64,000 nucleotides of DNA from Candidatus Marinacidobacterales bacterium. GTDB taxonomy: Bacteria > Acidobacteriota > Vicinamibacteria > Marinacidobacterales > DATDRI01. Under the pieces are notes generated by a model that had not been told where the DNA came from, ran no database searches, and was given only the letters and a program-made list of their open reading frames with translations. Location: NCBI GenBank assembly GCA_965226495.1, contig OZ245365.1, forward strand, positions 4,704,001 through 4,768,000, in the 5' to 3' direction. A program made the position numbers and the translations under genes. This document shows, piece by piece, positions 2,057 through 64,000 of this stretch; within the stretch, counting starts at the first letter, position 1; every line of letters begins with the position of its first letter.

Positions 2057-3964
2057 TCAAAGAATCACTCGCTCGCTTCCCACTCTCCGCGTCACGTGCT
2101 CTCGATCCAGCCACTCCAAGAGTGGAATGGCGTGCTTTCGAGTGACGCCGGCCAGATCCTTGAAGAAGGCGACGTCGATCTTGGGTCTCTTTTCTTTCTG
2201 CTGCCGCACAGATTGCTTCAACTCGTCGAGGGCATCGCGATGAAACACCATGCCTTCGGTCAACTTGACCAGAGTTCCCTCCTGGATGAGCAGGCGCTCG
2301 ATACGCTGCAGAAGTTTCAGATCGCGGCGGTTCTTGGTGGCGATCTCGGCCAGCGCGGCCGGTTGATAGCGGGCCTTCAGAAACGTCTCGCCGAGAAACG
2401 AGCGGGCGTCCGCTTCCTCCGATGACAGCTCGATACGGTGGTCGCTCGTTGCCACCCAATCCTTGACGGTCCGGAGCCTTCCGTCTTGGACCAGACGACC
2501 GAGCGACCATTCGAATATCTCCAATGGTGCGCGGGCGGTCGCCTTTTCTCGGAGCTCGCCGCGAGGCATGCCCTCGCGCAGTGGGTTCGCCGTTTGAAAC
2601 GACTTCAGCTCCAGCAGTATTTGCTCCGAGACTTGCTCAGCCGTCTCCGGTGCTAGGAGCAACAGCGGTTTCTCCGAGATCCGAAAGACACGTTCGTTCG
2701 AAAGCAGAACCTCGACGAGCTTCGCGAGGGTGGCGCCGTCGATACCGAGCCGTCGCGCCAACTCGGAACCCTCGAGACCGCCGAGACCCGCCTCGGCTAC
2801 AAACGATGCGGCGGTTTCGACTCGATCGCCCGACCGCAGCGCGGCGAGTCGTTCTACCACTTCGCGGCTGGTCACAGAGTGCTTCGGAGGAGACGGGTCG
2901 AGAACTCTACCTCCCCCCAACGTCTCGAGGGGTGAGTAGCGTCGAATGATGAATCGATCCGAAGCGGTGGCGACCACTGGCGTCTCGAGACGGAATTGAA
3001 CGAGTCCGCGCATCCCTGGAGCGACGGCACCTTGGTTCCCCAAGACCCTGACCCGGGCGACGGCGACGGCGGTCCCGATGTGGAGATGTACCCGCGCTAG
3101 ATCTTTGATGGGGGTCGGAGACGATACCAAGACCTCGAGCTCCGCATCCAGCATCATGCTGGGGAGCAGGGTGCTCGAACGCGCTAAGGTGTCCCCTCGA
3201 ACAACCTCACTCATCTCGATGCCCTGTAGATTGACGGCGGTTCGTTGACCGGCGAGCGCGCGTTCTACGGCTTCACCGTGAACCTGCAACCCGCGCACGC
3301 GAGCCTTGGCACCACGGGGCAAAACTTCCACTTCCTCATCCACCGCGATGGTGCCCGACGTCAACGTCCCGGTAACGACCGCCCCGAATCCCTTCATCGT
3401 GAAGACCCTATCCACCGGTAGACGGAAGAGACCGTCGCTGGGTCGGGCGTCGACTCCGGCGGCGATGTCCAACAAGATCCGTTTCAGCTCGTCGACGCCC
3501 TCACCGGTTTTCGAAGAGACGTAAACCGTCTGGGCTCCCTCGAGGAAGCTACCCTTGGTCAGCTCACTCACCTCCATCGCCGCAATCTCCCGAAGCTCCG
3601 GTTCAACCAAGTCCGCCTTGGTAATCACCACCACGCCCTGTTTCACACGTAGGAGACGGCAAATCTCGAAGTGCTCGCGAGTCTGAGGCATTACCGACTC
3701 GTCGGCCGCCACGATGAGCATCACCATGTCGATGCCCCCGGCGCCCGCCAACATGTTTTTCACGAATCGCTCATGCCCCGGAACATCGACGAACCCCAGG
3801 GTAAGCCGCTCGGGGTAGGTCAAGAACGCGAACCCCAAGTCGATAGTGATTCCCCTTTCCTTTTCCTCCTTCAGCCGATCGGGATCGGTGCCGGTGAGAG
3901 CGCGTACCAAGGCGCTCTTCCCGTGATCGATGTGTCCGGCTGTACCGACGATGACATGCTTCAT
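2057..3964 (-). CDS. selB: Selenocysteine-specific elongation factor SelB
   Basis: [28 protein letters not shown]; C-terminal winged helix [13 protein letters not shown]; start taken at MKHVIV. Confidence 0.95.
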
Positions 3965-4041
3965 GGCGAGTCCCCGATATGATAGCCGACCGGAAGAAGC
4001 GGTAAAACCGTGTGCTATCATGGAATCACAAAGAGGTGTTC

Positions 4042-4845
4042 ATGACCCGATCCAATCTCCTGTTCGTGCTTCTGTTCGCTTTCTCCACTTCCGCGGCTGC
4101 GACAACCGGCGCGGGAACCGTTCAAAACACCAGCAGCGAAAAAGAAGAATCGGAAGAGAGCACGATCCTTAGAGAGCTCCTCGAGATTCGCAAGGAGATC
4201 GAAACCTTGCGGAGAGAAATAGGAGATTTGCGGAGCAAGGTAGGCGATATCCACCGGGTTGCGGTGCGCCCGGCCCCGACCGCCCCACCGCCGCCGGAAA
4301 AGGTTAGCCTGGACGAGAGCCGCGCCCTCGGGAGTGCGGACGCGCAGATCGCGATCGTGGAGTTCTCCGATTACCAGTGTCCCTATTGCGCGCGTTTCTT
4401 CCAGCAAACGTTCCCCGCACTCAAGAAAAACTATATCGAGACGGGTAAGGTGCGCTTTTACTTTCGAGACTTCCCTCTCGAAAAGATCCACCCTCAGGCA
4501 AAGCCGTCGGCCATCGCCGCCAATTGCGCGGCGCGGCAAGGCGCCTACTGGGACATGCACCATGGATTGTTCGAGAATCAAAAGAGACTGGGCCCTGAGC
4601 TCTACCAGGAGTTAGCGAAGGAAATGGGGCTGGACGTCGCCGCCTTCGAAGCTTGTCTCGAAGAGCCGGCCGAGGACAAGCGAGTCGATCAGGAGCTCGC
4701 CTACGGCCAAAGCCTTACTGTTCAGGGAACGCCACATTATTTCGTGGGCCGTATCGAGGACGGTCAATTGATCGACGTGAAGCGCTTGAACGGCGCACAA
4801 CCGTTCGAGGCTTTTTCGCAAATCATCGAGCCGTATCTCAAGTAA
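4042..4845 (+). CDS. DsbA-family thiol-disulfide oxidoreductase with N-terminal coiled coil
   Basis: Signal peptide, EFSDYQCPYC active site, GTP cis-Pro motif, GAGG SD. Confidence 0.88.
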   Translation: MTRSNLLFVLLFAFSTSAAATTGAGTVQNTSSEKEESEESTILRELLEIRKEIETLRREIGDLRSKVGDIHRVAVRPAPTAPPPPEKVSLDESRALGSADAQIAIVEFSDYQCPYCARFFQQTFPALKKNYIETGKVRFYFRDFPLEKIHPQAKPSAIAANCAARQGAYWDMHHGLFENQKRLGPELYQELAKEMGLDVAAFEACLEEPAEDKRVDQELAYGQSLTVQGTPHYFVGRIEDGQLIDVKRLNGAQPFEAFSQIIEPYLK

Positions 4846-49139: not shown

Positions 49140-52100
49140 ATGGGTTCTAAACCAAACAGACGTCCATTACGAAGTGAAAAGAACTCTCCCGACGCCGTGA
49201 TCAGGGTCCGCGGAGCCCGTCAGAACAACCTCAAAGGCATCGACCTAGACCTGCCGCTTGGCGCGCTCGTGGCGGTGACCGGGGTCTCCGGCTCGGGCAA
49301 GTCCTCACTGGCGTTCGACACGCTCTACGCTGAGGGCCAGCGACGCTACGTGGAGAGCTTTTCCACCTACGCTCGTCAGTTCCTCGACCGCATGGATAAG
49401 CCGGCCGTCGACCGCATCGAAGGAATCCCGCCCGCCATTGCAATCAACCAAAGCAATCCGGTGAAGAACTCTCGCTCCACCGTCGGCACGATGACCGAGA
49501 TCACCGACCACGTGAAATTGCTCTTCTCCAAGCTAGCGGAGTTGTTCTGCCGCAAATGTGGGCAAAAGGTCGAGCGGGACTCGGTAGATACGATCCTCGA
49601 AAAATTGCTCAGTGAATTCGGAGGCACTCGACTCTTCATCACCTTCCCACTTCGAGTACCGGAAAAGACAAGTACCGAGGATGTCGAGTCCAGTCTGGAG
49701 GGACTGGGCCTACGCCGTCTTCTCGTCAACGGGAAGATCGAGGAGGTCTCCCGCAAGCTGCTGGCGCGACTCCGCGAGAAACCGATAGCCGTTGTCGTTG
49801 ACCGAACGACCAGCAAACCCGAAGGCCGGGAGAGGCTAGCGGATTCCCTGGGCCAGGCGCTTCATTTCGGCAAGGGGCACGTCAGCGTTTGGATTGATGG
49901 AGGGCAAGAGCTCGAAGAAGTTCCCTTTAGCGAGCATTTCCACTGTGCAACGTGTGACATCCACTACCCCGACCCGGTTCCGAACCTCTTTTCCTTCAAC
50001 AACCCCCTGGGAGCCTGCGAAAACTGCAAGGGCTTCGGCCGGACGATTGGCATCGATCTCGAGTTGGTCATCCCCGATCCTAGAAAAACATTGCGACAAG
50101 GAGCCATAAAACCGTGGACCACCGCCTCCTACCGCGAGGGCCAAGAAGATCTGCTCGCCTATTGTCGCCGCAAACGCATTCCTGAGGACGTCCCGTGGGC
50201 AAAATTGCCCCCAAAGCAACAACGCCATGTCATCGAAGGCGACCAAAGCTTCTACGGCATCCAAGGCTTCTTCGAGTGGCTGGAAACTCGTACATACAAA
50301 ATGCACATCCGAGTGCTTCTGTCGAAGTACCGGAGTTATGTGCGTTGCGAGTCGTGCGGCGGCACTCGATTCAGGAAAGAAACGCTGCTCTATCGCGTGG
50401 AAGGAAGAACCATCGCCGAGATCTACGCGGCGGACATCGAGGAAGCACTTGATTTCTTCACTCAGTCGCCGAGTCGTCCAGGCGATCGCGTCGCGGAGAT
50501 GCTGCTCGACGAGATCGAAAACCGGCTAACTTACCTACGCGACGTCGGCCTCGGGTATCTGACGCTCGATCGTCAGTCGCGCACACTTTCCGGAGGGGAG
50601 GTCCAGAGGGTGGATTTGACTACCGCCCTCGGATCCTCCCTGGTGAACACGCTCTACGTCTTGGACGAGCCTTCGGTAGGCTTGCATCCCAGAGATACCT
50701 CGCGGTTGATGGACATCTTGAAGCGGCTGCGTGACAACGACAACACCGTCGTGGTCGTGGAGCACGAACCGGAAGTGATTCGGCGTGCCGATCGAGTCGT
50801 GGACCTTGGCCCTGGTGCCGGCGAACGAGGCGGTGAGCTGGCGTTTTTTGGAGCGCCGGCCGAGCTCGTGAAATCGGCGAACACTTTGACCGGGAAGTAC
50901 CTCTCCGGACAGCTGCGTATTCCATGGCGGGGCTCACGCCGCAAAGGGCGCGAAGGTCACGCGATTCACATCCGCGGGGCCAAACAGAACAATCTCCACA
51001 ACGTCGATGTCGAGATCCCGCTCGGTGTCATGGTGGCGGTCACCGGGGTCTCGGGCTCCGGCAAGAGCACTTTGATCGAGGACATCCTCTACCGCGGGTA
51101 CCGAAAATGGAAAGGCAAAGGGATGGGTGAGCCGGGCGCCTGTGACGGCCTCGACGGTTTGGAGCTCGTTCAAGAACTGGTCCTCGTCGATCAATCGCCT
51201 ATCGGTAGAACGCCTCGTTCGAACGCCCTCACGTATCTCAAGACGTATGCGCCCATCCGACAGCTCTTTGCCTCCACCCGTGCGGCTCACGACCGCGGCT
51301 TCTCAGCAAGCACCTTCAGCTTCAACGTGGACGGTGGTCGCTGCCCGCTGTGCTCTGGAGAGGGGTTCGAAAAAGTCGAGATGCAGTTCCTCTCCGACGT
51401 CTACGTGACCTGCGAGTCGTGCGGCGGAGCCCGATTCAAACAAGAGGTGCTCGAGGTCCGGTTTCGCGGCAAGAACATCCAAGACGTGCTCGGAATGACG
51501 GTGACGGAAGGAATTCGCTTCTTCGCCGGGTGGGAGAAGATCGTTACTCCGCTGGAAGTTCTGCGCGGTGTAGGGCTCGGGTATCTGCGCCTCGGTCAGC
51601 CGGTCAACACGCTATCCGGCGGCGAAGCCCAACGATTGAAGCTGGCCTACCACATGAGCGGTGCGGTCGCGGAAGGAACGCTTTTCTTGTTCGACGAGCC
51701 GACCACCGGACTACACTTCGACGACATCCGCGTCCTCCTGTCCGCCTTCGACAAACTTCTCGAGCAAGGCGCCAGCATCCTGATTATCGAGCACAACATG
51801 GACGTCGTGAAAAACGCCGATTGGGTAATCGATCTGGGGCCGGAGGGAGGCGAAGCCGGCGGACGGGTCGTTGCCATCGGGACTCCGGAACAAATAGTGA
51901 GATCGCGTGCGTCCCACACCGGGAAATATCTGGCGCCGTACTTGAAACAGAAACCACCTCGCATCGCATCTTCACCACTTCCTCGGCAGGAGCTCGACAC
52001 TGGCACGGTTCGCGTCATTGGCGCCCGACATCACAACCTCAAGAACGTCACCGTCGACACGCCACGCGACCAAATGGTCGTTATCACTGGCCTCTCCGGC

Positions 52101-54788
52101 TCGGGAAAAAGCACGTTGGCATTCGACATTCTGTTCGCGGAAGGCCAGCGGCGATTCATCGAAAGCCTCTCCGCCTACGCTCGCCAGTACATCCGTGTGA
52201 TGGACAAACCGGAGCTCGATTTACTCTTGGGTATCCCGCCCACTGTTTCGATCGAGCAAAGACTCACGCAGGGCGGTCGCACGTCCACCGTCGCTACCGC
52301 CACCGAGATTTACCACTATCTGCGGCTGCTGTACTCCAAGGTGGGTGTTCAGCATTGTGCGGAATGCGACACACCGATCACGCCGCAGACTGAAGATCAA
52401 ATCGCCAGTGATATAGCTCGTCGGTTCAAGAAGGGACGCGTGATGCTCCTAGCCCCATTGGTGCGTGCGCGGAAGGGTTCACATAGAGAGATCTTGGAGC
52501 GCGCCGCCAAGGAGGGCTTCGAAAAACTGCGCATCGACGGTCGGATGATCCGTACCGCGGCGGCACGCCCTCTTCGTCGCTACGTCGAACACGACATCGA
52601 AGCCGTCGTTGCGGAACTAACTATGAAAGCGGCGACTGCCGCGATCGGGCGCGACCAACTTCGGCGAGCTCTAGAATTGGGGCGGGGCGCAGTCGTGGTG
52701 GTAACCGCCAAGGAGTCCCGCTATTACAATCTGAGACGAGCTTGTCCGCGTTGCGAGACCAGTTATGAAGAGCTCGATCCAAGACTCTTCTCATTCAACA
52801 GCCGCTACGGCGGGTGCCCAAGCTGCCGCGGCATGGGTTATCGGGAAGCGTTCGATCCGGATCTCGTCATTTCAGACCGGCGCCTCTCGTTGGATGAAGG
52901 GGCGATCGTACCCCTCGCCAAAAACTCCAAGAAGTTCCCCCGAAGTGCCTCGTACAGGGCACGAGTGCTTCGCATGGCAACGAGGCTGAGAATCCATAGG
53001 CGACGCGCTTTCAATAAAGTGGCGCGCAAGCAAAGGGAACTTTTTCTTTTCGGCACCGCCGAAATAGAAGGCGTCCTTCCCTACCTAGAGCGAATCTATC
53101 GAGACGCGACGGGCGAGCTAGCCACGCACCTGGAGCAGTTTCGTTCTCAAACGCCTTGCTCCGAGTGTGAAGGTGCGCGGCTCAACCGCGTCGCCCGTGC
53201 CGTTCGCTTGGGCGGCCTCGGCATCGATCGCGTCGCAGACATGACGCCCGAAGGAGCGCTCCAGTTCTTGTCTAGTGTGGATCTTCAGGGGAGAACCGGC
53301 ATCATCGCCGAGAACATCCTGAAGGAGATTACCGCGCGCCTTTCGTTTCTCTTGCAAATTGGTCTTTCCTATCTTCAATTGTCCCGCCGGAGCGACACGC
53401 TCTCAGGAGGAGAGGCACAGCGGATTCGACTCGCGGCGCAGCTCGGTTCGAACCTTAGAGGCGTTTGCTACATTCTCGACGAACCGACCATCGGTCTTCA
53501 CGCGCGAGACAATCGGGTGCTTCTGAAGACGCTGCGTCAACTTCAACGGGCTGGCAACTCAGTGATCATCGTCGAGCACGACGAGGACACGATTCGGCAT
53601 GCGGACCATGTCATCGACCTCGGGCCCGGGGGAGGGGCTGAGGGTGGCGAAGTGGTGGCGGTGGGAAGCCCCGCCGAAATCGAGGCCAATCCCAGATCGT
53701 TGACTGGCCGATTTCTAAAACGCAAGGACAGTGGACCAACGAGGCGACCGCGGCCGCTCGACGGGTGTTCCTTCGTAACCATACGCGGAGCGAAAGAGCA
53801 CAACCTGAAGAATATCCGCGTACGATTCCCCGCCGGTCGGCTGAGCGTCGTCACCGGTGTTTCGGGATCGGGGAAGAGTACGTTGGTCCGCGACATCCTC
53901 TATCGCGCCGTTCGCCGCAAGCTGACGGGGAGCGGAGGACGGGTCGGCGAGCACCGAGAAATCACCGGGGCCAATGTCTTCACTAGGGTTCTCGAGGTCG
54001 ATCAAACCCCGATTGGAAAAACACCGCGTTCCATCCCCGCCTCTTATGTCGGGTTTTTCGATGAGATCAGAAGGCTATTCGCTTCGACTCCAGAAGCCCG
54101 CATGCTCGGATACCAGCCCAGTCGGTTCTCGTTCAACGTCAAAGGCGGCCGATGCGAGAACTGTGGGGGCCAGGGTCGGATCAAAATGGAGATGAGCTTC
54201 CTCCCCAACGTCTACGTCCACTGCGCGATCTGTGACGGACGGAGATACACGCAAGAAACCCTCTCGGTCACCTACCGCGGCAAGAACATTCACGAGGTTC
54301 TGGAGATGACGCTCGTCGAAGCCGAGGAGCTCTTCCGTCCGGTAGAACCGATACATCGGCCGCTTCGAATCCTCAACGAGATGGGGCTCGGCTACCTTAC
54401 CCTCGGGCAACCGTCCAACACCTTGTCCGGCGGCGAAGCGCAACGGATCAAGCTTGCCTACGAGCTTGCGAAATCCAACCGCGGTTCGACGCTGTATGTA
54501 CTCGATGAGCCAACCACCGGTCTTCACATGGCGGACATCGAGAAGTTAGTTGGTTCGCTACAGTCATTGGTAGATCAGGGGAACACGGTGGTCGTGATAG
54601 AGCACAATCTGGAAGTCATCCGAGAGGCCGATTGTGTCGTCGATCTGGGGCCCGAAGGGGGAGAGCAGGGAGGCCACTTGGTGGCCTGGGGACCACCGGC
54701 CGAGGTAGCCGCCTTGGGTGAGACCTCCTACACCGCTCGCTTCCTGAAGGAGTACCTCAAGGGCTTTCCTGTCTCGGTCTCCGCCTAG
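49140..54788 (+). CDS. uvrA: Excinuclease ABC subunit A, tandem double-length form
   Basis: 1882 aa; four GxSGSGKS Walker A and four LSGGE signatures; duplicated Zn fingers. Confidence 0.93.
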
Positions 54789-58165: not shown

Positions 58166-59479
58166 TTGTTTCTAAGCGCACTAGCGTTCATCTTCGTTCT
58201 CGGGGTCATGATCTTCATTCATGAGCTCGGCCACTTCCTCACCGCCAAGTGGATCGGCGTCAAGGTCCATGTCTTCTCCCTCGGCTTTCCACCCAAGCTC
58301 ATCGGTAGAAAGTGGGGCGACACCGAGTACCGAATCGGCATGCTCCCCCTGGGCGGCTACGTGAAGATGGCCGGAGAAAACCCTGATGAGGTTTCCGGCA
58401 ATAAGGACGAGTTCTACTCGAGGACGAAGCTAGAGAGAATCGCCATCCTGACGATGGGACCGGCGATGAACATCTTTCTCACCGTCTTTCTTTTCACGAT
58501 CCTTTTCATGGTCGGGATCGATCGGCCGGTAGGCCTCGAGGATCCACCGGTAGTCCGCTTCGTCTCCGCGGACTCCCCGGCGATCGCCGCGGGCGTCGAG
58601 CCCGGTGACCGGATCGTAGCTATCGACGGCGAACCGGTCGATAGCTGGATGAAGACCTTAGACACCTTCCACATCAGCCCCAACCAAACTGTGGCCCTCA
58701 CCTTGGAGCGTGCCGGTCACGCCGTCGAAACCGAGCTGGTGATCGAGGCCCGAGGCGAGGAACAGATCGGGTACACCGGGCTGTTTCCGGCGGTTCAACC
58801 GCGCGTCGAAGGGTTGAGTGAAGGCTTCCCGGCCGAGCTCGCCGGTCTCCTCGAGGGTGACCTGATCGTCAAAGTCGACGACAAAACCATCTACAGCAAC
58901 CAAGAGCTCATCGAGGCCATCGGAAAAAAAGAGGGGGCGCCCGTCACGCTCGCGATCCTGCGGAGCGGAACCCTGCAGGAGATAACCGTCACCCCCAAGA
59001 AAGAGGGGGAGCGCTTCCTCATCGGTATCGAGCTTCCCTCCCCGGTGGCGATGCAGCAGATCAGCAATCCCGTCAAGGCGTTCGGCGCCGCAGTGAGCGA
59101 ATCCGCCCGCATTACCAAGCTCACCTTCGTCGTCTTGGGTCGTTTGATTCAGAGGAAGCTCTCGATGCGGCAGATGATGGGCCCCATCGGGATCGCGCGA
59201 GCCTCGGGGCGGGCCGCAAGAAGCGGGGCACGCAACCTCTTCACCCTCATGGCCGTGATCAGCCTTCAGCTCGGTATCTTCAATCTTCTACCAATTCCCG
59301 TCTTGGACGGCGGCCACATTGCGATCATCTTAGTGGAGGGCCTCGCCCGTCGCGACTTTAGTCTGCAAATGAAAGAACGCGTGCTGCAAGTGGGCTTCGT
59401 ACTTTTGTTGCTCTTGATGGTAACGGTCATCTACATCGACCTTAGCAAAATCGAGTCCATCGGCCGCTTCCTCCCTTAG
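58166..59479 (+). CDS. rseP: Site-2 protease RseP
   Basis: HELGH, two PDZ domains, NLLPIPVLDGG. Confidence 0.95.
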   Translation: MFLSALAFIFVLGVMIFIHELGHFLTAKWIGVKVHVFSLGFPPKLIGRKWGDTEYRIGMLPLGGYVKMAGENPDEVSGNKDEFYSRTKLERIAILTMGPAMNIFLTVFLFTILFMVGIDRPVGLEDPPVVRFVSADSPAIAAGVEPGDRIVAIDGEPVDSWMKTLDTFHISPNQTVALTLERAGHAVETELVIEARGEEQIGYTGLFPAVQPRVEGLSEGFPAELAGLLEGDLIVKVDDKTIYSNQELIEAIGKKEGAPVTLAILRSGTLQEITVTPKKEGERFLIGIELPSPVAMQQISNPVKAFGAAVSESARITKLTFVVLGRLIQRKLSMRQMMGPIGIARASGRAARSGARNLFTLMAVISLQLGIFNLLPIPVLDGGHIAIILVEGLARRDFSLQMKERVLQVGFVLLLLLMVTVIYIDLSKIESIGRFLP

Positions 59480-59484
59480 TGCGA

Positions 59485-59552
59485 GTGAACAGTAAACAGT
59501 GAACAGTAATCAGTACTTCCAACTGATCACTGATGACTGCTTACTGACCACT
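59485..59552. repeat. Heptamer-array hairpin, copy 2 (inverted relative to copy 1)
   Basis: GAACAGT AAACAGT GAACAGT AATCAGT ... ACTGATC ACTGATG ACTGCTT ACTGACC. Confidence 0.75.
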
Positions 59553-59589
59553 TCTCGCTCTTCGACCGGCTCGCCCTGAGAAAGGCCCT

Positions 59590-60702
59590 GTGAAGATCGA
59601 AACGATTGAGATCCAAGAACTGAAGCTTGAGCTACTCTTCCCCTTCGAGACCAGCTTTGCTCGTGTCGACTACCAGCACTTCTTGGTCCTGAAAGTCCGG
59701 GTGGACGGGGTCGTCGGCTGGAGCGAATGCGTGGCCGACGAGGCGCCGAGTTATTCTTCCGAGACCATCCGCACCGCCTGGCACGTCATCGAAGATTTCA
59801 TCGCACCGGTGGTCTTCCAACGAGAATTCTCGCACCCGCGTGAGATCGTGTCTTCCCTAGATCTGATTCGGGGACACAATATGGCAAAGGCCGCGGTGGA
59901 GATGGCGTGCTGGGACGCTTACTCCCGCCAACAAGGAGAACCGCTTTCCAAAACGCTGGGAGGCACGAGAGCTGAGATCGAGTCAGGAGTTTCGATCGGA
60001 ATTCAAAAAAGCGTGGGGCAACTGCTGGAGAAGATAGAGACTGAATTAGCCAGTGGCTATCGACGAATTAAGATCAAGGTCAAACCGGGCTGGGATCGCG
60101 ATGTCGTCGCTGCCATCCGGAAGCGATTTCCCGACACTCCCCTTATGATCGATGCGAATTCCGCGTACAGTCTCGACGACATTCCGCTCTTCAAAGATCT
60201 CGACCAGTTCGATCTCATGATGATCGAGCAGCCTCTAGCGTACGACGACATTTGGGACCATGCGAAGCTCCAACGAGAGATACGAACTCCTATTTGTCTC
60301 GACGAGTCAATCCACTCTCCAGAAGACGCCCGGAAGGCGTTCGAAATGGGCGCCTGCCGCATCATTAACATCAAGGCCGGGCGGGTCGGGGGCCTGGTCC
60401 GAGCGAAGGCGATTCACGACGTGGCGGCTTCTCACGGTGCGGCGGTCTGGTGCGGCGGTATGCTGGAAAGTGGAATCGGCCGGGCGCACAACGTCCACCT
60501 TTCCACCCTCGAGAACTTCGCTCTGCCTGGCGACGTGTCCGACAGCAAGCGTTATTTCAAGGAGGAGGTCATCGAGCCGCGGGTGGAAGTCAGATCCGAC
60601 GGCACGATCGCCGTCCCCACCGAGGCCGGCATCGGCTACCGAGTGTTGGAGGATCGCATCCAGCGCCACTCGTTGAGTTCTGCTGTCCTGAAACGGACTT
60701 AA
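59590..60702 (+). CDS. NSAR/OSBS (N-succinylamino acid racemase / o-succinylbenzoate synthase) enolase-superfamily enzyme
   Basis: PFETSF, KIKVKPGWD, DANSAY, IEQP, LDES, WCGGMLESGIGRA. Confidence 0.9.
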   Translation: MKIETIEIQELKLELLFPFETSFARVDYQHFLVLKVRVDGVVGWSECVADEAPSYSSETIRTAWHVIEDFIAPVVFQREFSHPREIVSSLDLIRGHNMAKAAVEMACWDAYSRQQGEPLSKTLGGTRAEIESGVSIGIQKSVGQLLEKIETELASGYRRIKIKVKPGWDRDVVAAIRKRFPDTPLMIDANSAYSLDDIPLFKDLDQFDLMMIEQPLAYDDIWDHAKLQREIRTPICLDESIHSPEDARKAFEMGACRIINIKAGRVGGLVRAKAIHDVAASHGAAVWCGGMLESGIGRAHNVHLSTLENFALPGDVSDSKRYFKEEVIEPRVEVRSDGTIAVPTEAGIGYRVLEDRIQRHSLSSAVLKRT

Positions 60703-60707
60703 AACCC

Positions 60708-61800
60708 TTGCCTAGCTGTCACGCCGCGGTCATACCCGCTCCCGGTGTCGCGCCGGAGACGAGAGAAATCGCGATCCCCGATTTGGTACCAGGAGCGATT
60801 CTCCTGAGAACAATAGCCAGCGAGGTCTGCGGCACCGACGTCCACCTGTATCACGGGCGGTTGGACGGTGTTCCCTATCCCCTCATTCCCGGCCATATCT
60901 CGATCGGGCACGTCGAGGAGATGATCTCCGAAGTGCAAGACGCCGAGGGCAATCTCATCCGCCCCGGCGACACCGTCGTGTTCTATGACGTCATCGGAGC
61001 TTGTGGGGGCCTGCTATGTCTGCTCGGTCGCCGCGACACCGACACGCTGCCCACACCGCAGGGTGTATGGCATCACATTGCCGGGCGACAGGCCGTCTGG
61101 TGGTTGGGCGACCCACATCTATCTCGAGCCGGGAACGAAGACACTCAAGCTGACCGAGGGGCTCTCGGTCGAGGATTACATGGGTGGGGGATGCGGCCTC
61201 CACACCGGCTACCGAGCCGTTGAACGGGCGGACATCGAAATCGGGTCTTCGGTCTTGGTCATGGGCGCGGGACCGGTAGGGCTCTCCGCCACCGCGTTCG
61301 CACGTTTGGCCGGTGCGGGACTGGTTCTGGTCACGGGAGCGCCGGAAGCGCGACTCGAAGCAGCCCGTCACATGGAAGCGAACGCCACGATGGATATCAC
61401 CGGCTCCGAAAAAAAGGACCGGGTCGCATGGTCGCGTGAGCAAACGGAGGGACGGGGTCCCGACGTCGTGATCGAAGCGGCGGGACGACCGGAGGCGGTC
61501 GTCGAAGCGTTCGAGATTGTGCGGGAAGGCGGCACCGTCGTGATCGCAGGACAGTACACGGATGCGGGGGATGCAGTCTTCAATCCTCACCACCACCTGA
61601 ACCGCAAGCAGCTCGATGTGCGGGGCTGCTTCGGGTTCGAGTTCCGGCATTTCTATCGGGCCACGCGCTCGCTCACGACCATCGCCAAACGCTTTCCATG
61701 GCGAGAACTCATCACCCGGGAGTACACACTTGACGAAGCAGCTCAGGCTCTGGAAGACGTGGCAGCGCTCAAGGTTGTCAAGGCTTTGATACGCCCCTGA
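60708..61800 (+). pseudogene. Zn-dependent MDR dehydrogenase/reductase with single frameshift (real or sequencing error)
   Basis: VCGTDVH, PGH; removing one G at 61005-61009 restores CGACYVC-x7-C; GAGPVG. Confidence 0.8.
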
Positions 61801-61829
61801 AGGACCGCCATGCCAAGCCCTATCACGGG

Positions 61830-62636
61830 ATGACCGCCCCGCGCTTTTTGTCTCTGAAGGAGGCGGTCTCCCTCATTCCGAGTGAAGCTTCACTGAGCCT
61901 CGGGGGATTCGATATCGTCCGGGCTCCGATGGCTCTCGTTTTCGAGCTCGTCCGCCAGGGAGGCCGACGGATCGAACTGATCACCGCTCCCAACCCCTTA
62001 GCGATGGACGTCCTCATTGGGGCGAAAGTAGCCTGCAAAGTGACCGCGGGTTTTTCCGGCTTCCAATACCAGCATGGGTTCGCGGTAGGGCCGATGTGGA
62101 AGCAGGCCGTCGAGTCGAACGAGGTCGATTACCGTGAGGTCGACGTTTACGCGATCCTCAGCGGCCTTCGGGCCTCGGCCCTCGGATTGCCGTTCCTTCC
62201 TTTGACCGATATCGATGGCTCCGAACTCACCGACCCCGAGCGATGGACCCGCGTGGAACATCCATTCGATGCGAAGCAGAAAGTGACGGTGACGCGCCCC
62301 ATACGGCCCGACTTCGCACTCATCCACGCCCAAGCGGCGGACCGAACGGGGAACCTTCGCATCGACGACCCGATCGTGGACGAGCTCGTCGCCAAGGCAA
62401 GTACTCGTGTCATTGCGACGGTGGAAACGATCACGGACCAAGTGGAGCGCCCCTCGGTACCTTTCTACCGCGTCGACGCCCTGGTCGAGGCTCCGCGGGG
62501 AGCGTGGCCGTCCGCTTGCCCAGGATACTATCCCGTCGATGAGGAGCACCTTCATCTATATATAGGGATGGCGGAAGGGGGACGCTTCGCCGACTACCGA
62601 CGCCAATTCATCGACCCCAAGGAAGGCACCTCATGA
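61830..62636 (+). CDS. CoA-transferase-fold alpha subunit, AibA-like
   Basis: SLKEAV, GGF..RAPMALV.EL, PNPL, LRASALGLPF, HAQAADRTGN. Confidence 0.85.
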   Translation: MTAPRFLSLKEAVSLIPSEASLSLGGFDIVRAPMALVFELVRQGGRRIELITAPNPLAMDVLIGAKVACKVTAGFSGFQYQHGFAVGPMWKQAVESNEVDYREVDVYAILSGLRASALGLPFLPLTDIDGSELTDPERWTRVEHPFDAKQKVTVTRPIRPDFALIHAQAADRTGNLRIDDPIVDELVAKASTRVIATVETITDQVERPSVPFYRVDALVEAPRGAWPSACPGYYPVDEEHLHLYIGMAEGGRFADYRRQFIDPKEGTS

Positions 62637-63355
62637 GCTTTGCGGTCGACACCATGCTTTCGGCCATGGCTCGTCTCATCCGCAATGGTGACGTGGTAAC
62701 GACCGGCGTCGCCTCCCTTCTCCCGATGCTCGCGGTAGGGTTGGCAAAAGAGACTCATGCTCCCGAGCTCACGTATTTGAACTGCGTCGGCGCGGTGAAC
62801 CCGGAGTGGACCGAGCTCCCCCACACGTCGGTCGAGCCGACGCTCCTCCCGGGTGCCGCGTTCATCCGACTCGACGAAATCTGGGAAATGGCCAACCAAG
62901 GAAGGGTCGACTTGATGTTCTTCGGTGCTTTTCAGATCGATGCCCGAGGCCGCACGAACCTCCACCGTCTTCGGTCGGGGCGCAAACTACCCGGCATAGC
63001 TGGCGCCTCCACGATGCGGAGGAAGGTCAAGTGGCCCGTCTTGTTTACGACGCGCCACGATCGCCGGACCTTCGTGGAAGGCGTCGACGCCGTAACGACT
63101 TCTGCTCGAGGCGACGAAACGACGCAGGTGGTGACGCCGCTCGGAATCTTGTCGCTGGGCGCGATGGAGTCCCGGATCGACTCCCTTCTGGCCGGTCGCA
63201 CTCTGCAGGAGATTCGGGACCGAACGGGCTTCCCGCTCACAACGCTCGAGACCCTCCAAACACTCGCCCCACCGAGTCGGGAAGAAGTCGAGGCTCTCGA
63301 CCGTCTGGACCCGGAAGGCAAGAGGCGAGTCTTCCTCAAAAACGACGGTGAATAG
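62633..63355 (+). CDS. CoA-transferase-fold beta subunit, AibB-like
   Basis: TGVAS, THAPELTYLNCVG, GRVDLMFFGA.QID.RGRTN, PGIAGA. Confidence 0.85.
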   Translation: MSFAVDTMLSAMARLIRNGDVVTTGVASLLPMLAVGLAKETHAPELTYLNCVGAVNPEWTELPHTSVEPTLLPGAAFIRLDEIWEMANQGRVDLMFFGAFQIDARGRTNLHRLRSGRKLPGIAGASTMRRKVKWPVLFTTRHDRRTFVEGVDAVTTSARGDETTQVVTPLGILSLGAMESRIDSLLAGRTLQEIRDRTGFPLTTLETLQTLAPPSREEVEALDRLDPEGKRRVFLKNDGE

Positions 63356-63404
63356 CCTCTCTCGGAGAGGCTCCCCGCACTTCGGGATATAATCCCTCTC
63401 TACG

Positions 63405-64000
63405 ATGAGATACGGTCTCGGCATTTTGCTCAGCGCTTCGCTGGCTGGTGGTTGCGCGTCGCTCGACTACACCGAACTCCGCCCCGACCAGAAGTTCGCT
63501 CGCCTGATGATGCTCGAAGACGAGCGGTCCCTGGGCGCCGGGGAGGTCGTCACCCGACTGAGCGACCCGAGCCATCGGATTAGGCTTCGCGCCGCTCTCG
63601 CCCTCGGCCGGATCGGCTACACGGCGGGAGAACCGCATTTGGTCGCCACGCTGTCGGACTCCGATCCGGACATGCGAGCAGTAGCGGCTTTCTCCTTGGG
63701 ACTTCTCGAAGGACCTCTTTCCGACGAGGCCTTGGCGGCCCTCGAAAATGCCTTGTCCGACGTCGATGCAGAGGTCCGAGGCCGGGCGGCAGAAGCCCTC
63801 GGTCGAAAAGGAACCGACCCGGTAGCCTTTCAGATCGGTGCCGGGCTTCGAGCCCGTCTGCCTCGCGGAACGCCCCCCCGGGAATGGGGTGAGGACATAG
63901 AGCGTTCCCAACCGAAGATGCCTCATCCGGATCTCCGGCTCGGTCTATTTGCACTCGCGCGGAAGAACAATCTCCGATCGGCGTGGAGCATTTTGGCCAC
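63405..64000 (+). CDS. HEAT-repeat lipoprotein (3'-partial)
   Basis: MRYGLGILLSASLAGGC lipobox-like leader; repeats such as LSDPSHRIRLRAALALGRIG; TATAAT upstream; runs off the window. Confidence 0.75.
   Translation, partial: MRYGLGILLSASLAGGCASLDYTELRPDQKFARLMMLEDERSLGAGEVVTRLSDPSHRIRLRAALALGRIGYTAGEPHLVATLSDSDPDMRAVAAFSLGLLEGPLSDEALAALENALSDVDAEVRGRAAEALGRKGTDPVAFQIGAGLRARLPRGTPPREWGEDIERSQPKMPHPDLRLGLFALARKNNLRSAWSILA

What the first reader, a model, noticed from the sequence alone, without database searches (positions are those of the whole stretch)
61830..63355. AibA/AibB-like CoA-transferase-fold pair with Cys replacing the catalytic Glu: candidate alternative isovaleryl-CoA route outside myxobacteria
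Seen: the beta subunit reads THAPELTYLN-C-VG (Cys51, nt 62783-62785), where GctB-type family I CoA transferases carry the catalytic Glu of an ESG-like motif. Established: Myxococcus xanthus AibA/AibB has this fold with Cys at that site and decarboxylates 3-methylglutaconyl-CoA to 3,3-dimethylacrylyl-CoA. The MDR AibC then reduces this to isovaleryl-CoA, a primer for iso-fatty acids. Motifs in both subunits (RAPMALV.EL, PNPL, TGVAS, LTYL.CVG, PG.AGA) match AibA/B as I recall them. Inference: this is a decarboxylase that automatic annotation would call a CoA transferase. It could feed iso-branched lipids, which are abundant in Acidobacteria, or act on a different acyl-CoA, since no mvaS or aibR lies in this window.
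Basis: partly seen in the sequence, partly recalled or inferred. Interest (0 to 1): 0.8.

Follow-up and report, generated by a model that had tools for sequence, protein, structure and literature searches.

The report
AibA/AibB-type decarboxylase pair in Acidobacteriota
Two adjacent genes that databases name CoA-transferase subunits belong instead to the small AibA/AibB family of acyl-CoA decarboxylases known from Myxococcus, but this genome lacks the other genes of the Myxococcus isovaleryl-CoA pathway.

Summary
ORFs 61830-62636 and 62633-63355 (+) are a CoA-transferase-fold alpha/beta pair. Their best solved relatives are M. xanthus AibA (E 3e-58) and AibB (E 1e-42), far ahead of GctA/B. Cys51 (TGC, 62783-62785) aligns with the AibB cysteine and with the catalytic Glu of this genome's own ENG/ESG paralogs. 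Both subunit trees place the pair inside the Cys-type AibA/B clade, as a separate, rare acidobacterial branch.

The pathway reading is only partly supported:
- The neighbouring MDR is TM0436-like, not the type that accompanies other AibAB-like genes.
- That MDR carries a +1 frameshift in a G5 run (61005-61009). One of four sequencing runs, and a 97% identical relative, have the in-frame allele.
- The genome has no HMG-CoA synthase, AibC-type reductase or adjacent TetR regulator.
- Two species of the same genus have deleted aibAB while keeping the flanking genes.
- aibA and aibB themselves look under purifying selection (dN/dS 0.11-0.17).

Most likely this is a cofactor-independent decarboxylase for 3-methylglutaconyl-CoA or a close analogue, outside the canonical de novo route.

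By contrast, other Acidobacteriota, Binatia, a Dongiaceae MAG and DPANN archaea carry near-complete AIB-like clusters.

The parts
61830..62636 (+). aibA-like alpha subunit (268 aa), CoA-transferase fold, with RAPMALV and PNPL motifs
   Evidence: ORF. PF01144 at 68 bits. Best PDB hit 5mzw_A at E 3.1e-58, against GctA 1poi_A at 1e-21. Inside the AibA-like clade of 21 rows, SH-aLRT 100. Retains 41 of 47 positions conserved across the AIB-context groups.
62633..63355 (+). aibB-like beta subunit (240 aa); its start overlaps the aibA stop by 4 nt
   Evidence: ORF. PF01144 at 31.5 bits. Best PDB hit 5mzw_D at E 9.5e-43, against GctB 1poi_B at 4.3e-5. Inside the Cys-type clade. Retains 25 of 27 conserved positions.
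62783..62785 (+). TGC codon for Cys51, at the position of the catalytic Glu of family I CoA transferases
   Evidence: Sequence. Aligned to the AibB Cys and to the Glu of the ENG/ESG motif of this genome's own paralogs.
62834..62836 (+). Codon for Glu68 (SVEP), one residue after the column of AibB Glu72; candidate proton-relay acid
   Evidence: In the HMMER alignment, AibB Glu72 pairs with Val67 and Asp73 with Glu68. Position 68 is D or E in 114 of 121 relatives. The role of Glu72 is taken from PMC7756340.
62999..63004 (+). Codons for Ala123-Gly124 within PGIAGAS, equivalent to AibB Ala133-Gly134
   Evidence: Alignment. Both residues are invariant in alignment A1. Their roles are described in PMC7756340.
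60708..61800 (+). Zn-dependent MDR gene (TM0436-like), interrupted by a +1 frameshift; probable TTG start at 60708
   Evidence: Two overlapping frames carry ADH_N and ADH_zinc_N. Best PDB hit is 1vj0. Orthologs are intact in L013, L012, G001 and G002.
61005..61009 (+). G5 homopolymer that causes the MDR frameshift; G4 would read CGACYVC (the structural-zinc Cys motif)
   Evidence: Sequence. Contigs of runs X1, X3 and X4 match the window, while the X5 contig lacks one base at 61005. The 97% identical relative L079, and L012 and L013, are in frame.
59590..60702 (+). MenC/NSAR-like enolase-superfamily gene, 5 nt upstream of the MDR start; probable first gene of the operon
   Evidence: TIGR01928 at 374 bits against a cut-off of 200.65. 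It lies next to the MDR in G001, G002, G004 and G005. menB and menD were not found above cut-off in the genome.
63405..64000 (+). HEAT-repeat gene (691 aa, runs beyond the window; orthologs end in a cyclophilin domain); conserved downstream neighbour, probably unrelated
   Evidence: Pfam HEAT_2. Orthologs in L012 and L013 carry HEAT plus Pro_isomerase. It is retained in G001 and G002, where aibAB is gone.

Best explanation
The two genes encode a heteromeric, cofactor-independent acyl-CoA decarboxylase of the AibA/AibB family. This family has the family I CoA-transferase fold but has lost the beta-subunit glutamate needed for CoA transfer. By analogy with M. xanthus AibA/AibB, the enzyme would bind a glutaconyl-type CoA thioester and release CO2 to give an enolate. 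The most likely substrate is 3-methylglutaconyl-CoA. Cys51, with Glu68 as a probable proton relay, would then protonate the enolate, giving 3-methylcrotonyl-CoA or the corresponding enoyl-CoA.

The genes form the distal half of an operon: menC/NSAR-like, Zn-MDR, aibA, aibB. The MDR belongs to a different subfamily from the one that accompanies other AibAB-like genes. Its role, whether reducing the product or acting on another intermediate, is only inferred. In this strain the MDR is knocked out by a one-base insertion.

The genome lacks HMG-CoA synthase. The pair therefore cannot run the Myxococcus de novo route from acetyl-CoA. It acts either on 3-methylglutaconyl-CoA from another source, such as the biotin carboxylase/enoyl-CoA hydratase cluster elsewhere in the genome, or on a related substrate.

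Shown: family membership, Cys in place of Glu, operon structure, the frameshift, the absence of partner genes and purifying selection. Inferred: decarboxylase activity, the substrate and the role of the MDR.
For: Closest solved relatives:
- Alpha: 5mzw_A at E 3.1e-58, against GctA at 1e-21 and IpdA at about 1e-16.
- Beta: 5mzw_D at E 9.5e-43, against GctB at 4.3e-5 and IpdB at about 1e-4.

Active-site residues:
- Cys51 aligns with AibB Cys56 and with the Glu of YENG/YESG in the genome's two other beta subunits.
- Ala123-Gly124 match AibB Ala133-Gly134, which line the active site.

Family size and phylogeny:
- Among 1.84 billion representatives, only 23 clusters reach E <= 1e-30. Of these, 20 have Cys at this column.
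- In the beta tree of 65 rows, all 35 Cys-type rows form one clade (SH-aLRT 91; 96 with one Ser row). They are separate from the Ile/Val-, Gly- and Glu-type rows. The clade includes P0362, which matches AibB at E 8.5e-68.
- In the alpha tree of 32 rows, an AibA-like clade of 21 rows (support 100) holds the window clade together with sequences named Stigmatella and Myxococcaceae.

Conserved positions: the window clade keeps 25 of 27 beta and 41 of 47 alpha positions shared by the three AIB-context groups. Ile-type and outside controls keep 13 of 27 and 22 of 47.

Selection: against the 97% identical relatives L079/L080, dN/dS is 0.14 for aibA and 0.11-0.17 for aibB.

Pathway context in relatives: they sit in clusters with HMG-CoA synthase (NF003274 at 487-519 bits, 4 of 4 tested), a thiolase, DUF35 and an MDR that matches 5k1s at E 8.9e-114.
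Against: - No enzyme assay exists for any non-myxobacterial member, so the activity is inferred by homology.
- The window clade is not the closest sister of the myxobacterial proteins. The fused, AibC-associated clade is closer (support 95, quick tree with SH-aLRT only).
- AibB Glu72 aligns with Val67. An acid follows at position 68, but whether it is equivalent is unproven.
- The canonical partners are missing. HMG-CoA synthase models reach only 31 and 28 bits, and tblastn with sister-cluster HMGCS gives nothing better than 49 bits. The best match to the AibC-type MDR is 36% identical and lies elsewhere. The HMG-CoA lyase model reaches 52 bits against a cut-off of 246.
- The adjacent MDR is frameshifted in the window and in the contigs of 3 of 4 runs.
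- aibAB is deleted in both same-genus genomes examined.
- aibAB was not found at more than 48% identity in 400 sampled genomes of the phylum. The function is therefore dispensable and may be eroding.
Confidence: 0.6

Rival explanations
1. Full alternative isovaleryl-CoA (AIB) route. HMG-CoA would be dehydrated, decarboxylated by this pair and reduced by the neighbouring MDR to isovaleryl-CoA, which primes iso-branched lipids.
For: The pair belongs to the AibA/B family. An MDR lies directly upstream in the same operon. Related Acidobacteriota carry clusters that look like this route. An enoyl-CoA hydratase next to a biotin carboxylase pair exists at G000 5052359-5056773.
Against: No HMG-CoA synthase was found in the genome: TIGR01835 at 31 bits, TIGR00748 at 28 bits, and no tblastn match to sister-cluster HMGCS. 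The MDR is TM0436-like, not the 5k1s type, and is frameshifted here. No TetR gene is adjacent. Same-genus species lack aibAB. The lipid link was not testable.
Confidence: 0.12
2. A decarboxylase of the same family acting on a different substrate, within an undescribed pathway defined by the conserved menC/NSAR-like and TM0436-type MDR genes. Possible substrates are glutaconyl-CoA or another 3-substituted glutaconyl-CoA.
For: menC-like and MDR genes are adjacent in the own genome and in 4 of 5 relatives examined. menB and menD are not over cut-off, so the menC-like gene is probably not an o-succinylbenzoate synthase. The window clade is a separate branch (support 99 and 100) with its own MDR type. 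The genome also makes glutaconyl-type CoA esters: a glutaryl-CoA dehydrogenase-like gene and a carboxyltransferase lie at 4393303-4396239.
Against: The window clade keeps nearly all residues shared by clades with clear AIB context: 25 of 27 and 41 of 47. menC-like and MDR genes persist where aibAB is deleted, and aibAB persists here with a broken MDR, so the functional coupling is loose. MenC-family enzymes act on free acids, not CoA esters (established knowledge, recalled).
Confidence: 0.2
3. A genuine CoA transferase that uses another residue, which is what the database names imply.
For: Both subunits pass Pfam CoA_trans. Sources name relatives glutaconate CoA-transferase.
Against: The catalytic Glu is replaced by Cys in 27 of 27 Cys-type hits and in all window-clade members. 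The genome's two other pairs keep ENG/ESG. NCBIfam transferase models score far below cut-off: 35 against 128.5, and 26 against 243.6. The conserved acidic residues I checked (D93, D103, D226) are shared with AibB, so I saw no clade-specific substitute Glu in the alignments; no 3D model was available. In M. xanthus, converting Cys56 to Glu lowers activity rather than being the native state (PMC7756340).
Confidence: 0.04
4. A remnant on its way to loss, with the pair no longer serving a function in this lineage.
For: The MDR frameshift. Independent deletions of aibAB in G001 and G002, with different breakpoints. Rarity in the phylum.
Against: Both ORFs are intact. dN/dS is 0.11-0.17 against a 97% identical relative, although the counts are small: 18.5 synonymous against 8.5 non-synonymous changes in aibA. 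An in-frame MDR allele exists in run X5 and in L079. By contrast, the aibB remnant in G002 shows dN/dS 0.53 and gaps.
Confidence: 0.1

Closest known systems
Myxococcus xanthus AibA/AibB (MXAN_4264/4265), 3-methylglutaconyl-CoA decarboxylase; PDB 5MZW-5N03
   Same: Two-subunit CoA-transferase fold. Best solved match for both subunits (E 3e-58 and 1e-42). Cys at the catalytic-Glu site. PG-x-AGA loop with the Ala-Gly of the active site. RAPMALV, PNPL and TGVAS motifs. Same clade in both subunit trees.
   Different: A separate branch that is not sister to the myxobacterial proteins. Val67-Glu68 where AibB has Glu72-Asp73. No aibR, aibC-type reductase or mvaS in the operon or genome. Different neighbours: a menC-like gene and a TM0436-type MDR. 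Activity is untested.
Fused AibAB-like proteins in HMGCS / thiolase / DUF35 / MDR clusters of other Acidobacteriota, Binatia, a Dongiaceae MAG and DPANN archaea (loci L014-L028, L072-L078); uncharacterised
   Same: Cys-type beta domain, 43-48% identical in the bacterial loci and 38-39% in the archaeal ones. Same conserved positions. An MDR (or an SDR or FabK-like reductase) lies directly downstream.
   Different: There the alpha and beta parts are usually one polypeptide. The MDR matches PDB 5k1s at E 8.9e-114. The clusters include an archaeal-type HMG-CoA synthase and a second Glu-less CoA-transferase-like pair. None of these is present in the window's genome.
Glutaconate CoA-transferase GctA/GctB (Acidaminococcus fermentans, PDB 1POI) and other family I CoA transferases
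   Same: Fold and Pfam family PF01144. Subunit order alpha then beta.
   Different: Much weaker similarity (E 1e-21 and 4e-5). The beta-subunit catalytic Glu is absent here, whereas this genome's own paralog pairs keep ENG/ESG.
IpdAB (Mycobacterium tuberculosis and Rhodococcus jostii; PDB 6CO6, 6CON), a CoA-transferase-fold ring-opening hydrolase
   Same: Another CoA-transferase-fold pair that has left transferase chemistry. That function is recalled from the literature, not from any call.
   Different: Distant: E about 1e-16 for alpha and about 1e-4 for beta. Different chemistry and different context.

Membership tests
AibA/AibB decarboxylase family | Alpha and beta subunits with the family I CoA-transferase fold, encoded by adjacent genes | tested here: met
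   PF01144 in both subunits. The genes overlap by 4 nt.
AibA/AibB decarboxylase family | Closer to AibA/AibB than to any characterised CoA transferase or to IpdAB | tested here: met
   5mzw_A at 3.1e-58 against 1poi_A at 1e-21. 5mzw_D at 9.5e-43 against 1poi_B at 4.3e-5.
AibA/AibB decarboxylase family | Beta-subunit catalytic Glu replaced by Cys (AibB Cys56) | tested here: met
   Cys51 aligns with the AibB Cys and with the Glu of ENG/ESG in this genome's own paralogs. It is invariant in alignment A1.
AibA/AibB decarboxylase family | Glu72B, the hydrogen-bond partner and proton source for the Cys | tested here: inconclusive
   The aligned residue is Val67, with Glu68 adjacent. The fused clade with full AIB context likewise has Val-Asp. 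No 3D model was available.
AibA/AibB decarboxylase family | Ala133-Gly134 loop (PG-x-AG-A) next to the substrate | tested here: met
   PGIAGAS aligns with PGVAGAA. Roles of the residues are from PMC7756340.
AibA/AibB decarboxylase family | Phylogenetic placement with myxobacterial AibA and AibB | tested here: met
   Alpha: clade of 21 rows, support 100, with sequences named Stigmatella and Myxococcaceae. Beta: Cys-type clade with the P0362 anchor. These are quick trees with SH-aLRT support only, and the window clade is not the nearest sister.
AibA/AibB decarboxylase family | Decarboxylation of 3-methylglutaconyl-CoA without CoA transfer | not testable with these tools
   This needs an enzyme assay.
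AIB pathway/operon of M. xanthus (aibR-aibA-aibB-aibC-mvaS plus liuC) | HMG-CoA synthase present | tested here: not met
   TIGR01835 at 31 bits against a cut-off of 360. TIGR00748 at 28 bits against a cut-off of 353. tblastn with L015 and L019 HMGCS reaches at most 49 bits.
AIB pathway/operon of M. xanthus (aibR-aibA-aibB-aibC-mvaS plus liuC) | AibC-type MDR reductase | tested here: not met
   The window-clade MDR matches 1vj0 best and 5k1s only at 1.3e-21, whereas the sister-clade MDR matches 5k1s at 8.9e-114. The best genome match to that MDR is 36% identical. That 5k1s is AibC is recalled: the PDB title shown is generic and no paper in the library holds the code.
AIB pathway/operon of M. 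xanthus (aibR-aibA-aibB-aibC-mvaS plus liuC) | TetR-type regulator AibR next to the genes | tested here: not met
   The upstream genes are uppS, cdsA, dxr, rseP, a menC-like gene and the MDR. A HEAT-repeat gene lies downstream. One distant relative (L071) does have a TetR gene upstream.
AIB pathway/operon of M. xanthus (aibR-aibA-aibB-aibC-mvaS plus liuC) | LiuC-type HMG-CoA dehydratase / methylglutaconyl-CoA hydratase | tested here: inconclusive
   An enoyl-CoA hydratase at G000 5052359-5053162 lies between carboxyltransferase and biotin carboxylase genes. It scores NF005675 at 214 bits and NF004227 at 204 bits, both below cut-off.
Family I CoA transferases (GctAB, PcaIJ/ScoAB, AtoDA) | Catalytic Glu in the beta-subunit E(S/N)G motif | tested here: not met
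   Cys51 occupies that column. NCBIfam transferase models are far below cut-off.

The most novel reading that the evidence does not exclude
The conserved operon (enolase-superfamily MenC/NSAR-like enzyme, TM0436-type Zn-MDR, Cys-type AibAB-like decarboxylase) encodes an undescribed pathway. In it, a CoA-transferase-fold decarboxylase has been recruited to a substrate other than 3-methylglutaconyl-CoA. Together with the near-complete AIB-like clusters seen in other Acidobacteriota, Binatia, a Dongiaceae MAG and DPANN archaea, this would make the 'myxobacterial' decarboxylase an old, cross-domain enzyme family with several physiological roles.
Probability: 0.2. Interest if true: 0.65.

Novelty: new member of a known kind. 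Interest (0 to 1): 0.45.

Why it matters
Open literature treats AibA/AibB as a curiosity unique to myxobacteria. A passage of PMC5389471 seen says so. The 12 open papers that name the decarboxylase all concern M. xanthus, other myxobacteria, pathway engineering or unrelated topics, by title and abstract start.

This locus and its relatives show that the family is small but spans several phyla and DPANN archaea. They also show that public sources call its members CoA transferases. For Acidobacteriota, whose membranes are rich in iso-branched lipids (recalled, not from a call), the related complete clusters offer a testable route to isovaleryl-CoA that does not depend on leucine.

The window's own copy is a natural experiment. 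One genus holds one species with aibAB and a polymorphic broken reductase, and two species with clean deletions. Comparative lipid and acyl-CoA profiling could use this contrast.

Tried and rejected
- Sequencing runs: no RNA holder was listed, so nothing can be said about expression.
- Promoter and terminator scan of 59300-63700: 0 promoter-like sites and 3 terminator-like sites, against 3.5 expected. Uninformative.
- The listing of cluster members on 10 beta representatives gave no organism names. I anchored the myxobacterial beta group through a PDB search of P0362 instead.
- Metagenome scan returned only 2 loci, both near-identical relatives. It did not widen the synteny sample, but L079 showed the in-frame MDR allele.
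- Structure prediction of the sister-clade MDR, meant to reveal the title of entry 5k1s and, later, a model of the pair, was not accepted. No 3D test of 'another Glu in the active site' could be made.
- The primary papers (Li 2013, Bock 2017) are not held. Supplements are closed, including the supporting information of PMC7756340, which lists the active-site model residues. The pocket comparison is therefore limited to Cys56, Glu72, Ala133 and Gly134.
- A search for '5K1S' found no paper. A search for an AibC structure paper found none that describes it.
- Earlier-findings look-up was not open.
- Considered and rejected: that the frameshift is an assembly artefact. Contigs assembled separately from runs of 3 studies carry G5, though one may be the source of the genome. 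A fourth study carries G4 with no other difference over 2901 bases.
- Considered and rejected: that the menC-like gene is the menaquinone OSB synthase. menB reaches 151 bits against a cut-off of 343, and menD 54 against 244.
Full report
**Observation**

The two ORFs are present as described. The alpha subunit is 61830-62636 (268 aa) and the beta subunit is 62633-63355 (240 aa). Both lie on the + strand and overlap by 4 nt. The beta subunit reads THAPELTYLNCVGAV, and codon 51 is TGC at 62783-62785. Both proteins pass Pfam CoA_trans. They fall far below the NCBIfam cut-offs for real 3-oxoacid or acetate CoA transferases.

Against all PDB sequences, the best hits are the two chains of entry 5mzw. 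Their molecule names are 'Glutaconate CoA-transferase family, subunit A/B'. That 5MZX and 5MZZ of this series are AibA/AibB structures is stated in PMC7756340 (whole main text read). The scores are:
- Alpha: E 3.1e-58, against 1e-21 for GctA.
- Beta: E 9.5e-43, against 4.3e-5 for GctB.

Cys51 lines up with the cysteine that is Ala or Ser in the two mutant chains whose alignments were printed, 5n00 and 5n02.

**Is Cys51 at the catalytic-Glu position?**

The window's genome (G000, one contig of 6.34 Mb) has two further alpha/beta pairs. Their beta subunits read LYENG and IYESG, and this Glu aligns exactly with Cys51. So the genome keeps two apparently orthodox transferase pairs beside this Glu-less one.

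According to PMC7756340, AibB Cys56 replaces the conserved Gct glutamate. Glu72B hydrogen-bonds to it and may be the ultimate proton source. Ala133 and Gly134 flank the substrate.

In the window protein, Ala123-Gly124 (PGIAGAS) match Ala133-Gly134. Glu72 aligns with Val67, followed by Glu68. The same Val-Asp/Glu arrangement is found in the relatives that sit in full AIB-like clusters. I count this feature as inconclusive rather than failed.

**Family and phylogeny**

*Word-indexed search with the beta subunit.* It listed 120 of 165 hits at E <= 1e-10. In the 121-row alignment, which includes the query, the Cys51 column holds 28 Cys, 91 Ile and 2 Val.
- The Cys rows comprise a tight clade at 60-98% identity (24 hits), mostly short metagenome contigs, and a few at 44-47%.
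- The Ile rows, at about 40% identity, carry names such as Chloroflexota, Thermomicrobiales and Methylomirabilia.

*Exhaustive HMMER search of 1.84 billion cluster representatives.* It found 784 proteins at E <= 1e-3, 234 at <= 1e-10 and only 23 at <= 1e-30. Of those 23, 20 have Cys, 1 Gly, 1 Val and 1 Ile.

*Beta tree* (65 rows; quick IQ-TREE, SH-aLRT support only).
- All 35 Cys-type rows fall in one clade (support 91; 96 when one Ser row is added).
- The window clade is a distinct branch (4 rows, support 99).
- A group that contains P0362 is sister to the fused, MDR-associated clade (support 95). P0362 matches AibB at E 8.5e-68 and is almost identical to it over its first hundred aligned residues.

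*Alpha tree* (32 rows). An AibA-like clade of 21 rows (support 100) holds the window clade, a DPANN archaeal clade, and a clade with sequences that NCBI names Stigmatella sp. and Myxococcaceae.

*Conserved positions.* I took the positions conserved across the three groups with AIB-type context. The window clade keeps 25 of 27 (beta) and 41 of 47 (alpha). Ile-type or outside controls keep 13 of 27 and 22 of 47. These counts partly reflect relatedness, so they are not independent of the trees.

I conclude that the pair is a member of the AibA/AibB enzyme family.

**Neighbourhood**

Upstream lie uppS, cdsA, dxr and rseP. Then comes a MenC/NSAR-like enolase-superfamily gene at 59590-60702 (TIGR01928 at 374 bits). 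Five bases later a Zn-dependent MDR begins, at 60708-61800.

*The MDR frameshift.*
- The MDR is split between two frames at a run of five G (61005-61009). With four G it would read CGACYVC, the structural-zinc motif. Orthologs read CGQCYAC in one frame.
- I laid Logan contigs of four runs from four studies on 60500-63400. Three contigs are identical to the window. One (X5, depth 15.7) lacks one base at 61005 and shows no other difference. One of the identical runs may be the genome's own source.
- A 97% identical metagenome relative (L079) is also in frame.
- The frameshift is therefore real and recent, and it is polymorphic.

*The MDR type.*
- The window's C-terminal MDR piece and the intact L013 ortholog both match PDB 1vj0 best (E 3.9e-31 and 1.2e-56).
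- They match 5k1s only at 1.2e-10 and 1.3e-21.
- The MDR next to the fused AibAB-like genes of other Acidobacteria matches 5k1s at 8.9e-114.
- I recall 5k1s as the AibC structure. The PDB title shown is generic and no paper in the library holds the code.

**Partner genes in the genome**

| Partner sought | Result |
|---|---|
| HMG-CoA synthase | 31 bits (bacterial model) and 28 bits (archaeal model); cut-offs 360 and 353 |
| tblastn with sister-cluster proteins | No HMGCS, no second CoA-transferase-like pair; best MDR match 36% identical |
| HMG-CoA lyase model | 52 bits against a cut-off of 246 |
| Biotin carboxylase, carboxyltransferase and enoyl-CoA hydratase cluster | Present at G000 5052359-5056773; could make or hydrate methylglutaconyl-type CoA esters, but its family scores are below cut-off |
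| menB, menD | Not found over cut-off, so the menC-like gene is probably not an o-succinylbenzoate synthase |

**Distribution and evolution**

*Among 40 relatives of the same order.*
- 36 of 41 genomes (G000 included) have some beta-like match. This tally includes the unpublished genome G007.
- Only two have a close ortholog: G004 (67%) and G005 (62%), both in the same family.
- Both keep the order MDR, aibA, aibB, HEAT/cyclophilin gene, with the menC-like gene upstream. In G004 the menC-like gene is split between two frames.

*The two same-genus genomes.*
- Both keep the menC-like, MDR and HEAT genes at 86-89% nucleotide identity, with intact MDRs. Both lack aibAB.
- In G002 the window's 61843-63151 is missing, and the last ~200 nt of aibB remain as a decaying remnant (dN/dS 0.53, 7 gap positions).
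- In G001 61802-63345 is missing.
- Since G004 and G005 have the genes, these are most simply two independent losses.

*Across the phylum.* In an even sample of 400 other genomes, 18 have an AibB-like match at E <= 1e-30. All are at 37-48% identity, so none belongs to the window clade.

*Selection.* Against L079 and L080, dN/dS is 0.14 for aibA (18.5 synonymous and 8.5 non-synonymous differences). It is 0.11 and 0.17 for the two covered parts of aibB, and 0.16-0.21 for the MDR. The pair has been under purifying selection until recently.

**What the relatives show**

*Pattern scan of one genome per species.* It gave 28 loci. I aligned 25 of them, leaving out L032, L034 and L035. Seventeen have Cys and 8 have Val.
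- By record title, the Cys loci are Acidobacteriota, Binatia, Polarisedimenticolia, Dongiaceae, Woesearchaeota and Nanoarchaeia MAGs.
- The Val loci are Acidilobaceae and a Desulfurococcales MAG.

*The 11 bacterial sister loci scanned against Pfam*.
- 10 of 11 encode alpha and beta as one polypeptide. L021 starts inside the gene.
- 9 of 11 have an MDR directly downstream. No MDR was seen in L016, and I did not pass the downstream ORFs of L017.
- 8 of 11 have a thiolase upstream. Where the contig reaches further, there are also a DUF35 protein, an HMG-CoA synthase and a second CoA-transferase-like pair.

*Further loci.*
- Three more loci show the same order (L074, L076, L078). An MDR was found in two of them.
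- L072 has thiolase, AibA, AibB and MDR.
- L071 has TetR, AibA and AibB.
- L073 has AibA, AibB and an acyl-CoA synthetase-like gene.

*Identity of the synthases.* They are archaeal-type HMG-CoA synthases, with NF003274 at 487-519 bits against a cut-off of 244 in 4 of 4 tested.

*Archaeal loci.* These replace the MDR by an SDR. In L019 a FabK-like reductase also follows the beta gene.

These clusters look like a complete AIB-type route outside Myxococcota. The window's genome has none of the extra parts.

**Mechanism and verdict**

The best-supported reading is that the pair is a cofactor-independent decarboxylase of the AibA/AibB family. It would work as described for the Myxococcus enzyme: direct decarboxylation of a vinylogous beta-carboxy thioester, then protonation of the enolate by Cys, with a nearby acid as proton source (PMC7756340).

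The substrate is most likely 3-methylglutaconyl-CoA or a close analogue. The physiological pathway here is not the de novo route from acetyl-CoA. The operon partners differ, and the reductase is broken in this strain. The genes are also dispensable in the genus.

**Literature**

I found no open paper that describes AibA/B-type genes outside myxobacteria.
- I read listings and abstract starts for all of them.
- I read the whole main text of PMC7756340 and passages of PMC5389471.
- The primary papers of 2013 and 2017 are not held and may discuss distribution.

I rate the finding a new member of a known enzyme family in a non-canonical, partly eroded context, of moderate interest. The related complete clusters are the more striking by-product.

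Noticed in passing
L015:2683-9772, L016, L018, L023, L074, L076, L078 (Acidobacteriota MAGs or genomes); L017 (Binatia); L020 (Dongiaceae): Conserved cluster: archaeal-type HMG-CoA synthase, thiolase, DUF35, a second CoA-transferase-like pair, a fused Cys-type AibAB and an MDR that matches PDB 5k1s at E 8.9e-114. It looks like a complete AIB-type route to isovaleryl-CoA outside Myxococcota, built on the archaeal HMGCS/thiolase/DUF35 module.
   Followed up: partly
L019:5637-7267, L024:5515-7231, L026:3506-5220, L016:5298-6200: The second CoA-transferase-like pair in those clusters also lacks the beta catalytic Glu (Ala or Val at that column). It groups with Gly-type proteins in the beta tree. 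Its alpha subunit is nearest to IpdA (6con_A, E 1.1e-26). No enoyl-CoA hydratase was seen within about 5 kb, so it might stand in for LiuC. That idea is speculation.
   Followed up: partly
L019:2013-13498, L024:2901-9523, L026:896-7516 (Woesearchaeota and Nanoarchaeia MAGs by record title): DPANN archaeal contigs carry the same cluster, with the MDR replaced by an SDR. In L019 a FabK-like reductase, an acyl-CoA dehydrogenase and ETF are added.
   Followed up: partly
Proteins P0027-P0120 (named Chloroflexota, Thermomicrobiales, Methylomirabilia where a name is given): A larger sister group of beta subunits has Ile or Val at the catalytic-Glu/Cys column and a PGGAGSA loop. It is neither a transferase nor AibB-like by motif, and its function is unknown.
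   Followed up: no
L029-L039 (Acidilobaceae, Caldisphaera and Desulfurococcales MAGs): Crenarchaeal relatives at 25-34% identity have Val at the Cys column, with a Glu two or three residues later (SVAEP/SVTEA). They form a separate clade.
   Followed up: no
window 59590-60702: This MenC-family gene scores as o-succinylbenzoate synthase (TIGR01928 at 374 bits). Neither menB nor menD reaches its cut-off in the genome, so it is more likely an N-acylamino-acid racemase-type or other enolase-superfamily enzyme. It is translationally coupled to the MDR in L013.
   Followed up: partly
G004 contig C23 140046-141150 (= L012 upstream of the MDR): The menC-like ortholog is split between two frames in this MAG (73% complete). 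This is either a frameshift or an assembly error.
   Followed up: no
G000:C1:4393303-4396239 (outside the window): An acyl-CoA dehydrogenase closest to the non-decarboxylating glutaryl-CoA dehydrogenase model (NF045552 at 430 bits, cut-off 470) sits next to a 577-aa carboxyltransferase. This suggests a biotin-dependent glutaconyl-CoA decarboxylase system in the same genome.
   Followed up: no
G000:C1:791134-796407 (outside the window): One of the two orthodox (Glu-type) CoA-transferase pairs lies in the order beta then alpha. Nearby are an SDR, a PIG3/crotonyl-CoA-reductase-like MDR, an MFS transporter and a 3-hydroxyacyl-CoA dehydrogenase.
   Followed up: no
window 49140-54788: A 1882-aa ORF matches UvrA over residues 956-1874, and ATP-binding-cassette models also match around residues 458-591. 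It is about twice the length of a normal UvrA (943-position model).
   Followed up: no
window 2057-4845: The selenocysteine elongation factor selB lies next to a gene of the Rcas_1661 family of thioredoxin-like (seleno)lipoproteins, which scores below its cut-off.
   Followed up: no
window 60500-63400 in runs X1, X3, X4, X5: The same 2.9 kb is found with no base substitutions in contigs of four runs from four studies, and 20 of the 24 listed runs, from 7 studies, hold at least half of its sampled words. The strain or a near-clone is therefore widely sampled.
   Followed up: no
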